Shown piece by piece: positions 25,701 to 28,024 of a stretch of DNA of 64,000 nucleotides; position 1 is the stretch's first letter, and each line of letters begins with the position of its first letter. The notes beneath the pieces were generated by a model. It did no database searches and had not been told where the DNA came from. It saw only the letters and a program-made list of their open reading frames with translations. The DNA comes from the human T2T-CHM13v2.0 reference genome, Homo sapiens: assembly GCF_009914755.1 (NCBI RefSeq), contig NC_060941.1; one strand, 5' to 3'. Made by a program: the position numbers and the translations under genes.

Positions 25701-28024
25701 ACCTGGCCGTGTTTCAAAGGGTACCTTCCATTCTTACATATTGAAAAAGTTCTCACTTGTGGGCATTTTAATAAATAAAGGTTATTAAGTTTTCTCTTGG
25801 GAAATTTTCCCTTGTAAAGAAAAATACCAATGTAATGTTAATTCTAATCATGTCTAACATTTTTAATAATAAAATTCTCATTCTAAATTTGCCTCTTTCT
25901 TTTTTCTTTTTCTTTTTTCTTTTGCAGCTGTTGTAGGCTGATGAAAGGAGCAGAAGCGGCCGGTGTGTAGCTACTGGCTTAGGTGCTCAGCAGAGAGGAT
26001 CTACCTGCCCCAGCATCAGTGGAGATTTGTCTAATGGTCTAAAGTTTACCCTTGGGATGTTTGTAAATTTAGGTCATGATCCTCTAGTATATATATATAT
26101 ATATATATTTATTTATTTATAAAATGGAATAAAATTTATTTTTCTCCCGTAACACTTGTTTTCAAGTCTTTATGTTTCTTACTTCAGTCTGAAGTCATCA
26201 GCAGCCAATCTGGCTTGTCAATGTGCAAAATGATCCCAGCATTTTCAACAGTGGCAGCAATGATCTAAAAAAGATGTTAATAGTGAGTGAATCACGAATG
26301 ATTTTTACCTTGTGTCTGCATGCCTACTTGTAAGGGTAGCTGTTGCCTGTGTTATTAGCTCTTTTTTTTGTGTGTGTGTAGAGACAGAGTCTCGCTCTGT
26401 CGCCCAGGCTGGAGTGCAGTGGCAAGATCTCAGCTCACTGCAACCTCCGCCTCCCATGTTTAAGCGATTCTTGAGCCTCAGCCTCCTGAGTAGCTGGGAT
26501 TACAGGGGCGTGCCACTATGCCCGGCTAATTTTTTTTGTGTGTGTGTTTTTAGTAGACACGGGGTTTCACCATGTTGGCCAGGCTAATCTCAAATTCCTG
26601 ACCTCAAGTGATTTGCCCGCCTCAGCCTCCTAAAGTGCTGGGATTACAGGTGTGAGCCACCGTGCCCGGCCTGTGCTATTAGCTTTTAAAGGTGACTTGC
26701 TTTGCAAACTTACTTAGTAATGACTAAGTATACAGCCCCAGACCTGTATATCTGGGGCTGGTATATTTAGGACTACATCTTTCTGCAAAAAGATAACAGT
26801 CTGCACATTTATTGGACTAGGCACAGGAACCTGTTTTACAGGACATAGTCCTCTGCATATTTCTGCTACTTTGTTAGATCATTATCTCATGAGCTTTTTC
26901 AGAAAATAGTGCAAAAATTGTATTTCACTTCCAAAAAAGTCTTTAAAAATATATTTCCCATACAAAAGTGGCTAAACATTTTAGATTCTACTACATTCTT
27001 ATGTAATGTTTGCACCAGATTTTCTGGGAAGAAAAATAATACTAAAGAATATTTAAATCTTGTAAGACAATAAAATGTGTCAGTCTGTCAGAATTCATCA
27101 TAAATAATTAGATTAAACTAATGTTGACTCACTGCCACCATTCTTATATATAAATGATAATTAGCTGCCTGGTGTTGTATAAGTTTTACTGTTATGTAGA
27201 AATACTGAAACTGAGATGGAAACAGAAAATTAATGTGATTGGACATCACATAAGGTACTATAATAATTAAGACACATCAGGTCCCACTTTGCATATGTAA
27301 CAAGCAAATATGTTTTCAAATAATTTCTTAAAATTTTCATTATAGTACATGATCTGAAAAGAAGTGAAAGATCCACAAATAATAGAAACTCAGGCACAGA
27401 TAGTCTCACCTGGTTTCTGAGATCTTCAATTATTGAATAGTATTTGCTATAATCTCTTCCCGATCCACCGTCTCCAGACCCAGGCCCATATTTGTCATAC
27501 CACTCCTTGATTTTGTTCTCCAGATCAGTGTTAGCCTCCTCCAGGGCTCTGACCTTGTCTAGGTAATTGGCCAAGCGGTCATTGAGGTTCTGCATGGTTT
27601 GCTTTTCCCCTCCAGAGAAAAGCCCCCCATCGCCAACACCACCTCCCATACCACCACCATAGCTGTAGAAGCCTCCAGTAGCACCACTGCTGAATCTAGA
27701 ACTCCCACAGAATCCAGAACCCCTGCCAAATCCAGAGACCCCGCCAAAGCTAGAACCCCCACCAAATCCTGTCCCAGAGCCTGAAGCTCCCCCAAAACCA
27801 CCCCCTACTGAGCAGCTACCAAAGCCCCCTCCAAAGCTGCCCCCAAAAGCACCGCTAGACCCCCCACTCAGGCTGCAGCTGCTGGCTCCTCCTCGGAAGC
27901 CCTGGGCCGAGCTGCCCCCCAGACCACATCTGCTTCCACTGCTGAAGCTGCTTCCACCAGCAGACACCCTGGCTGAGCTGCTGCCTCCAGCCCTGGAGGA
28001 GGAGGCGCGAGACGAGCAAGACAT
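22602..28024 (-). CDS. KRT24: Keratin 24 (type I keratin), 8 coding exons; this allele has a 1-bp deletion in exon 2
   Basis: Spliced translation [14 protein letters not shown]...LNDRLANYL...[12 protein letters not shown]...[10 protein letters not shown] matches K24 as I recall it. All introns are GT-AG. Exon CDS lengths 615/82/157/162/126/218/113/104; an 83-nt exon 2 would give 1578 nt = 525 aa + stop. Confidence 0.97.
22903..23015 (-). CDS. KRT24: KRT24 exon 7 (113 nt, tail)
   Basis: ccag|T GGT TCT...GSCSGQGR G|gtaga; phases consistent with neighbours. Confidence 0.94.
23157..23690 (-). mobile_element. Nested Alus in KRT24 intron 6
   Basis: Alu consensus matches. Confidence 0.88.
23808..24025 (-). 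CDS. KRT24: KRT24 exon 6 (218 nt, helix-termination motif)
   Basis: ttag|KSSLEGTLA...[16 protein letters not shown]|gtaaa. Confidence 0.96.
24362..24487 (-). CDS. KRT24: KRT24 exon 5 (126 nt)
   Basis: ttag|[13 protein letters not shown]...ELQSQLAM|gtatg. Confidence 0.96.
24586..24747 (-). CDS. KRT24: KRT24 exon 4 (162 nt)
   Basis: ctag|[22 protein letters not shown]...EERFNKQ|gtaga. Confidence 0.96.
24952..25426 (-). mobile_element. Alu + Alu monomer in KRT24 intron 3
   Basis: Alu consensus matches. Confidence 0.9.
25504..25660 (-). CDS. KRT24: KRT24 exon 3 (157 nt)
   Basis: ccag|G TAT GAG AAC GAG...KNHEE|gtagg. Confidence 0.96.
25894..26030 (-). repeat. Rearranged copy of KRT24 intron 4 + exon 5 fragment with A-rich tail, inside intron 2
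   Basis: 25923-26004 matches 24504-24585 (3 mismatches); 26005-26030 is identical to 24445-24470; T-rich tract at 25894-25922. Confidence 0.93.
26183..26264 (-). CDS. KRT24: KRT24 exon 2 (82 nt, frameshifted)
   Basis: ttttag|ATC ATT GCT GCC...ATT GAC AAG CCA GAT TGG...GAC TGA A|gtaag; one T is missing from the expected GAC AAT GCC AGA (DNAR). Confidence 0.95.
26360..26671 (-). mobile_element. AluS in KRT24 intron 1
   Basis: Alu consensus match; TSD tgtgYtattagct-like. Confidence 0.92.
27410..28024 (-). CDS. KRT24: KRT24 exon 1 (Gly/Ser head + coil 1A)
   Basis: ATG in GCACCATGT context; 205 codons ending ...IEDLRNQ|gtgag; LNDRLA helix-initiation motif. Confidence 0.97.

What the first reader, a model, noticed from the sequence alone, without database searches (positions are those of the whole stretch)
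26183..26264. KRT24 is frameshifted on this haplotype (exon 2 is 82 nt; c.666del, p.Asn222LysfsTer11)
Seen: the minus strand reads ATT GAC AAG CCA GAT TGG CTG CTG ATG ACT TCA GAC TGA, one T short of the conserved [12 protein letters not shown] motif (missing base between 26214 and 26215). Type I keratin exon 2 is canonically 83 nt, and the paralog in this window keeps 83 nt (45328-45410). All other KRT24 exons, splice sites, TATA box and polyA signal are intact, so the lesion looks recent. Inference: stop at codon 232 upstream of several junctions predicts NMD, or a 231-aa head+coil 1A fragment. I have an unverified recollection of a recurrent KRT24 N222 frameshift call in human exome data, so this may be a segregating loss-of-function allele rather than an assembly error.
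Basis: partly seen in the sequence, partly recalled or inferred. Interest (0 to 1): 0.85.

Follow-up and report, generated by a model that had tools for sequence, protein, structure and literature searches.

The report
Common KRT24 frameshift allele in CHM13
This copy of the human keratin 24 gene is broken by a one-base deletion that is already catalogued as a very common, apparently harmless human variant, so the finding is real but ordinary.

Summary
KRT24 exon 2 (window 26183-26264, minus strand) is 82 nt. One base is missing between 26215 and 26214. The spliced reading frame stops at codon 232 (TGA, 26186-26184), giving 231 aa. A single placeholder at the break restores a 525-aa frame that aligns without gaps to gorilla K24. 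All 7 introns are GT..AG, and the TATA box and polyA signal are present.

It is not new. The lesion is NM_019016:c.666delT, p.Asn222LysfsTer11, rs11309872. It is listed in a 2013 human-knockout paper (PMC3868571, supplement) and in a 2024 catalogue of polymorphic pseudogenes (PMC11576641, supplement). The 2024 catalogue gives a 1000 Genomes allele frequency of 0.465 (African 0.19, other groups 0.46-0.63) and 609 homozygotes. RefSeq already labels the CHM13 copy a transcribed pseudogene (hub table).

Asparagine is kept at this position in 116 of 120 related keratins, so the deletion is derived. An assembly error is very unlikely. The predicted result is a null allele, through nonsense-mediated decay or a fragment holding about a quarter of the rod. 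Verdict: real, correctly interpreted, already known, low interest.

The parts
22356..28083 (-). KRT24 gene, 8 exons. RefSeq calls it a transcribed pseudogene on this assembly.
   Evidence: Exon table from the hub. All 7 introns are GT..AG. Exons 1, 3, 4 and 6 match Pfam Filament PF00038 above its cut-off; exon 5 matches below it.
28106..28111 (-). TATAAA box, 23-28 nt upstream of the annotated 5' end
28022..28024 (-). KRT24 start codon ATG
26183..26264 (-). Exon 2, 82 nt instead of 83
26214..26215 (-). Site of the 1-nt deletion (c.666delT; the lost plus-strand base is A). Codon 222 becomes AAG (Lys).
26184..26186 (-). Premature stop TGA, codon 232, 1 nt before the exon 2/3 junction
22602..22604 (-). 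Natural stop codon TAA of the intact 525-codon frame, in the last exon
22374..22379 (-). AATAAA polyadenylation signal, 18 nt before the annotated 3' end
45328..45410 (-). KRT223P exon 2 (83 nt), the in-window paralogue used as comparison

Best explanation
The CHM13 haplotype carries the common human KRT24 null allele rs11309872 (NM_019016:c.666delT, p.Asn222LysfsTer11).

Shown: a single T is lost from codon 222 (AAT to AAG) in exon 2. The frame shifts for 10 codons ([10 protein letters not shown]) and ends at a TGA that is 1 nt before the exon 2/3 junction and 777 nt before the last exon junction.

Inferred: the mRNA is a textbook substrate for nonsense-mediated decay. Any protein made has the head, coil 1A, L1 and about 33 residues of coil 1B, which I interpolate as about 78 of the 313 Filament profile positions. 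Without the rest of 1B and all of coil 2 it cannot form a normal type I/type II keratin coiled coil, so the allele is a loss of function.

CHM13 derives from a hydatidiform mole and is essentially homozygous (recalled, established knowledge), so that genome has no working K24. The allele is derived, polymorphic and tolerated: about a quarter of 1000 Genomes individuals are homozygous.
For: Sequence:
- Exon 2 is 82 nt, the ORF is 231 aa, and one placeholder restores 525 aa.
- There is one gap against KRT223P exon 2.

Identity with a known variant:
- PMC3868571 supplement file 2 gives chr17:38858135 (hg19) A/-, c.666delT, p.N222fs, rs11309872. It also gives the entries '26 ... 33.8' (26 of 77 is 33.8%; I did not read the column headers) and genotype counts A1A1=891/A1R=2832/RR=2537. 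By my arithmetic that is a deletion frequency of 0.37 in 6260 people.
- PMC11576641 Additional tables 1 and 2 give p.Asn222LysfsTer11, global frequency 0.465, African 0.192, American 0.628, East Asian 0.595, European 0.456, South Asian 0.592, and 609 homozygotes.

Ancestral state:
- Asn at this position in 116 of the 120 listed relatives, Ser in 1, motif not found in 3.
- Gorilla K24 has N222 in an otherwise identical [17 protein letters not shown] context.

Loss of the rod:
- Pfam Filament matches exon 1 at profile positions 2-62 and exons 3-6 at 91-310.
- Coil 1B corresponds to K24 189-291 by the K10 chain 6e2j_B.

Annotation: RefSeq types the gene transcribed_pseudogene with NR_178196.1 on CHM13 (hub table; I did not verify this).
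Against: - I saw no reads, RNA or protein data from CHM13 or from carriers. NMD and absence of protein are inferred from rules, not shown.
- I could not open GRCh38, dbSNP or gnomAD. The match to rs11309872 rests on the HGVS name, exon, strand and allele in two papers' supplements.
- The two K24 biology papers I searched by keyword do not mention the polymorphism: PMC6662840 and PMC5376294 have 0 hits for 'polymorphi', and neither has hits for the genotype-related terms I tried. They therefore give no genotype-stratified evidence either way.
- Joint skipping of exons 2+3 would be in frame, so a shortened product cannot be excluded from sequence alone.
Confidence: 0.96

Rival explanations
1. 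Assembly or consensus error: the CHM13 donor really has the intact 83-nt exon and the base was lost during assembly or polishing.
For: Single-base indels are the commonest residual error type in long-read assemblies (general knowledge). I could not inspect any reads.
Against: - The lost base is a lone T between AA and GCC, not part of a homopolymer run.
- The exact same deletion is a catalogued variant at 0.456 frequency in Europeans and 0.465 globally. A random haplotype therefore carries it nearly half the time.
- RefSeq aligned a curated non-coding transcript with the 82-nt exon (hub table).
Confidence: 0.01
2. The frame is rescued in the transcript, by an alternative splice site, exon skipping or recoding, so that this allele still gives a functional K24.
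For: Skipping exons 2+3 together, or 2-4, or 2-5, joins phase-0 exons and gives open frames of 445, 391 and 349 aa.
Against: - Exon 2 has no GT downstream of the break (the only GT is at exon base 16), and the TGA precedes the donor, so no alternative donor can bypass it.
- Each of the exon 2 and exon 3 acceptors shows a single AG next to the exon in the context printed.
- Skipping exon 2 alone gives a 206-aa ORF.
- The in-frame multi-exon skips delete residues 206-285 or more, which is most of coil 1B (189-291).
- I found no evidence that such isoforms exist.
Confidence: 0.01
3. The allele is not a simple null. A stable 231-aa fragment (head, coil 1A and part of 1B), or an N-terminally truncated protein re-initiated at Met260 or later, has an activity of its own.
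For: - The fragment keeps the helix-initiation region of coil 1A (Filament profile 2-62).
- In-frame ATGs exist downstream at reference codons 260, 287, 290, 302 and beyond.
Against: - The stop is followed by 6 exon junctions, so NMD is expected.
- About 24% of people are homozygous, and a paper that looked at homozygotes proposes only possible effects on hair, skin or nails and reports no phenotype in the passages I read.
- Dominant-negative keratin fragments normally cause disease (recalled, established knowledge). That is hard to square with an allele frequency of 0.465.
Confidence: 0.03

Closest known systems
rs11309872, KRT24 NM_019016:c.666delT, p.Asn222LysfsTer11 (polymorphic pseudogene allele)
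   Same: Same gene, exon, CDS position, plus-strand allele (A deleted), predicted protein change and stop position.
   Different: Nothing found. The only new fact is that the CHM13 haplotype carries it, and the RefSeq annotation of CHM13 already reflects that (hub table). A full-text search for KRT24 with CHM13 found 0 papers.
Lineage-wide KRT24 loss in cetaceans, camels and eared seals/walrus (Ehrlich et al. 2019, PMC6662840; abstract and passages read)
   Same: Premature stops before the last exon, predicted to cause NMD or a protein lacking the filament domain.
   Different: Those losses are reported for whole clades. The human lesion is a segregating polymorphism, and the intact allele is still slightly commoner worldwide.
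Other common human keratin-related polymorphic pseudogenes (KRT37 p.Gln235Ter, KRTAP1-1 p.Gln51Ter, KRTAP13-2 p.Cys135Ter) in PMC11576641 Additional table 1
   Same: They sit in the same catalogue and the same 'keratinization' enrichment group, and all have common homozygotes.
   Different: KRT24 has the highest LoF frequency of the keratin entries visible in the passage I read: 0.465 against 0.172 to 0.216. It is a corneal/epithelial keratin, not a hair keratin.

Membership tests
Type I keratin / intermediate filament protein (Pfam PF00038 Filament), orthologue K24 | Match to the Filament rod profile | tested here: met
   Exons 1, 3, 4, 5 and 6 match PF00038 at profile positions 2-62, 91-142, 143-197, 199-238 and 240-310 of 313. 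E-values run from 1.2e-17 to 3.4e-22, except exon 5 at 1.1e-05, which is below the cut-off when scored alone.
Type I keratin / intermediate filament protein (Pfam PF00038 Filament), orthologue K24 | Orthology to K24 of other mammals | tested here: met
   Exon 1 (205 aa) is 98% identical to a bonobo protein and 97% identical to gorilla K24. The top hits are named keratin type I cytoskeletal 24. The read-through frame is 525 aa and aligns to gorilla K24 without gaps.
Type I keratin / intermediate filament protein (Pfam PF00038 Filament), orthologue K24 | Uninterrupted reading frame through coils 1A, 1B and 2 | tested here: not met
   The frame ends at codon 232, inside coil 1B. On this haplotype the gene is a pseudogene allele, not a coding member.
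Polymorphic pseudogene | Disabling lesion on the haplotype in hand, with no other lesion | tested here: met
   There is a single 1-nt deletion. One placeholder restores the 525 codons. Splice sites, TATA box and polyA signal are intact.
Polymorphic pseudogene | Both intact and disabled alleles segregate, and homozygotes for the disabled allele exist | tested here: met
   This rests on look-up in published tables, not on genotype data of my own. LoF frequency is 0.465 with 609 homozygotes in 1000 Genomes. Genotype counts are 891/2832/2537.
Nonsense-mediated decay substrate | Stop codon more than about 50-55 nt upstream of the last exon-exon junction (a recalled rule) | tested here: met
   The stop ends at mRNA position 755. 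The last junction is at 1532, which is 777 nt and 6 junctions downstream.
Nonsense-mediated decay substrate | Reduced steady-state level of the mutant transcript | not testable with these tools
   No expression data are available here. RefSeq's label 'transcribed pseudogene' (hub table) implies only that some transcript exists.

The most novel reading that the evidence does not exclude
The null allele may not be merely tolerated but favoured outside Africa. Its frequency rises from 0.19 in Africans to 0.46-0.63 elsewhere, and K24 has been lost independently in three mammalian clades. Loss of this corneal/epithelial keratin might therefore be adaptive in some environments. The CHM13 haplotype also carries Trp418, where 70 of 71 relatives have Arg. 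That could mark an old, long-inactive haplotype. Nothing I ran tests selection, and drift through the out-of-Africa bottleneck explains the same numbers.
Probability: 0.06. Interest if true: 0.45.

Novelty: already known. Interest (0 to 1): 0.08.

Why it matters
As a discovery it matters little. The variant has a dbSNP number, is in print since at least 2013, and is already reflected in the RefSeq annotation of this assembly.

It has some practical value.
1. Anyone using T2T-CHM13 as a reference should know that KRT24 is non-coding there while it is coding in the reference transcript NM_019016. Annotation lift-over and variant calling will flip the 'reference' state at this site.
2. By keyword search, two K24 biology papers and one cancer-predisposition paper do not mention that about a quarter of people lack the protein. 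The first two cover corneal expression and keratinocyte over-expression. The third tests rare disruptive KRT24 variants as colorectal-cancer risk alleles. Donor genotype is an uncontrolled variable in the first kind of work. For the third, a high-penetrance role for KRT24 loss is hard to reconcile with that homozygote frequency.

Tried and rejected
- A full-text search for 'rs11309872' found 0 papers. The number appears only in supplements.
- A search for KRT24 with CHM13 found 0 papers.
- A search for KRT24 with 'genome-wide association' and 'loss of function' found 2 papers, neither relevant.
- A search for KRT24 with R418W, Arg418Trp or c.1252C listed 10 of 18 papers, none of which holds KRT24.
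- The Rausell et al. preprint (10.1101/819615) has 0 mentions of KRT24 in its main text. Its supplements are not available here, so that it lists KRT24 rests on the attribution in PMC11576641.
- Rescue routes were considered and set aside: an alternative donor or acceptor, skipping of exon 2 alone, in-frame skipping of several exons, and downstream re-initiation.
- I tested for relaxed constraint on the human lineage. The window's read-through has 5 residues that differ from all 7 other primates and were compared with bonobo (A7, T116, R280, W418, V469). It has one more at 335, where bonobo has a gap. Bonobo has 5 residues of its own. There is no asymmetry, so I make no such claim.
- I ran no structure prediction, complex prediction or RNA search. 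None would change the verdict.

Full report
**Observation.**
- On the minus strand, KRT24 exon 2 runs from 26264 to 26183. It follows an AG acceptor and precedes a GTAAGA donor, and it is 82 nt long.
- In exon phase 0 it translates to [26 protein letters not shown].
- Joining the eight exons of the hub table gives a 1882-nt transcript. All 7 introns are GT..AG.
- The ATG at 28024 opens a frame of 231 codons. It ends at the TGA at 26186-26184, which is codon 232 and lies one base before the exon 2/3 junction.
- The last base before the break is CDS position 665, so the missing base is c.666. The predicted change is Asn222Lys, a frameshift, and a stop at the 11th codon.
- With one N between 26215 and 26214 (read as X, inside a script only) the frame continues for 525 codons to the TAA at 22604-22602 in the last exon.
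- TATAAA lies at 28111-28106 and AATAAA at 22379-22374.
- The paralogue KRT223P has an 83-nt exon 2 at 45328-45410. Its alignment to KRT24 exon 2 with 20-nt flanks shows one gap, at the stated place.

**Which state is ancestral.**
- A protein search with exon 1 (205 aa, longer proteins allowed) listed 120 relatives, the best of 1990 with E <= 1e-10 among 8000 scored candidates. The top hits are bonobo, gorilla and other mammalian K24.
- A strict pattern for the ...D-x-A..A[AT]DDF motif found it in 101 of the 120, all with Asn at x.
- A looser pattern recovered 16 of the remaining 19: 15 with Asn and 1 with Ser (P0032). Three had no match (P0022, P0035, P0117). In total that is Asn in 116 of 120.
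- Gorilla K24 (525 aa) reads [27 protein letters not shown] with Asn at 222. It is identical to the window up to the break.
- The window's read-through aligns to gorilla K24 without gaps, with 12 substitutions plus the X.

The 83-nt exon with Asn222 is therefore ancestral, and the deletion is derived.

**What is lost.**
- Pfam Filament (PF00038, 313 positions) matches exon 1 at residues 140-205 (profile 2-62). It matches exons 3 to 6 at profile 91-310.
- Exon 2 must cover about profile 63-90, and the break falls at about position 79. That figure is my interpolation.
- In a PDB sequence search with gorilla K24, the K10 coil-1B chain 6e2j_B aligns to residues 189-291. K14 coil-1A peptides align to 145-169, and K10/K14 coil-2B chains to about 324-452.
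- The 231-aa product would hold the head, coil 1A, L1 and 33 residues of coil 1B, followed by 10 frameshifted residues.
- The stop ends at mRNA position 755. The last exon junction is at 1532, with six junctions downstream. By the usual 50-55-nt rule (recalled) the transcript should undergo nonsense-mediated decay.

Both routes give a null allele. This step is inferred, not shown.

**Rescue routes.**
- Exon 2 has no GT after the break, and the TGA lies before the donor, so an alternative donor cannot bypass it.
- Skipping exon 2 alone gives a 206-codon frame.
- Skipping exons 2-3, 2-4 or 2-5 together would be in frame (445, 391 and 349 codons). Each removes residues 206-285 or more, which is most of coil 1B. 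I have no evidence that such transcripts exist.
- In-frame ATGs downstream begin at reference codon 260. Any product from them would lack the head, coil 1A and much of 1B.

**Already known.**
- PMC3868571 (PLoS Genet 2013; passages and supplement passages read) names KRT24 among genes with biallelic loss of function.
- Its supplement file 2 gives chr17:38858135 A/-, KRT24:NM_019016:exon2:c.666delT:p.N222fs, rs11309872 and dbSNP_120. It also gives the entries '26' and '33.8', which match 26 of the 77 exomes, though I did not read the column headers. The genotype counts are A1A1=891/A1R=2832/RR=2537. By my arithmetic that is a deletion frequency of 0.37 among 6260 people.
- PMC11576641 (Hum Genet 2024; passages, supplement passages and the first parts of supplements 6 and 7 read) lists KRT24 as a polymorphic pseudogene. 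The entry is p.Asn222LysfsTer11, rs11309872, LoF frequency 0.465, homozygote frequency 0.243 and 609 homozygotes. The maximum is 0.628 in the American group. The entry was kept and is credited to Rausell et al. 2020 and to the present work.
- The frequencies by group are African 0.192, American 0.628, East Asian 0.595, European 0.456 and South Asian 0.592, so the allele is present in 5 of 5 groups.
- The hub's gene table shows that RefSeq types KRT24 on T2T-CHM13 as a transcribed pseudogene, with transcript NR_178196.1 holding the 82-nt exon. I could not check that record myself.
- The Rausell preprint's main text does not name KRT24, and its supplements are not available here.

**Assembly error.** The lost base is a single T between AA and GCC, not a homopolymer. 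At an allele frequency near one half, finding this allele on a random haplotype is expected. I put an assembly error at about 1%. Only the reads can close it.

**Context in the K24 literature.**
- PMC6662840 (abstract, outline and passages read) shows K24 highly expressed in human corneal epithelium. It infers independent loss in camels, cetaceans and eared seals/walrus through premature stops.
- Its main text has 0 hits for 'polymorphi', 'homozyg' or 'allele'.
- PMC5376294 on K24 in keratinocytes has 0 hits for 'polymorphi', 'frameshift' or 'genotyp'.
- PMC8833793 tests rare (MAF <= 1%) disruptive KRT24 variants as colorectal-cancer risk alleles. It has 0 hits for 'polymorphi' or 'homozyg'.

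By keyword search, then, these gene-focused papers do not discuss the common null allele. That is the only mildly useful point to come out of this finding.

**Verdict.** Interest is low.

Noticed in passing
window 23915-23917 (-), KRT24 exon 6, codon 418: The read-through frame has Trp (TGG) where 70 of 71 orthologue-sized relatives have Arg and 1 has Pro, and where all 7 primate K24 proteins compared have Arg. The change looks like a CpG-type CGG to TGG transition at a near-invariant coil-2B residue, downstream of the frameshift. I could not tell whether it is the human reference state or is linked to the null allele. A literature search found nothing for KRT24.
   Followed up: partly
window 45328-45410 (-), KRT223P exon 2: It translates to IIAATINNASMTSPIDSAGLAADDFKM. 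The first 16 residues are identical to the same stretch of a 'K24-like' protein of Microcebus (P0036) and close to that of Rhynchocyon (P0054). KRT223P therefore looks like the human remnant of a second K24-like gene that is still intact in some mammals.
   Followed up: partly
window 13011-13092 (-), inside KRT224P: This is a degenerate exon-2-like remnant with AG/GT flanks. It carries ...LAAVDF... in place of LAADDF and an in-frame TGA early in the exon. By my count it is also 82 nt, but the copy is too decayed for that to mean anything.
   Followed up: no
window 28039-28041 (-), KRT24 5' UTR: An upstream ATG lies 17 nt before the main start codon and is out of frame with it. It opens a 57-codon ORF that overlaps the start of the coding region.
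   Followed up: no
KRT24 codon 219 (exon 2): His is found in the window, bonobo and gorilla. Old World and New World monkeys, siamang and most other mammals have Gln: 62 of 71 have Gln and only 1 of 71 has His. This is an ape-lineage substitution three residues before the break.
   Followed up: no
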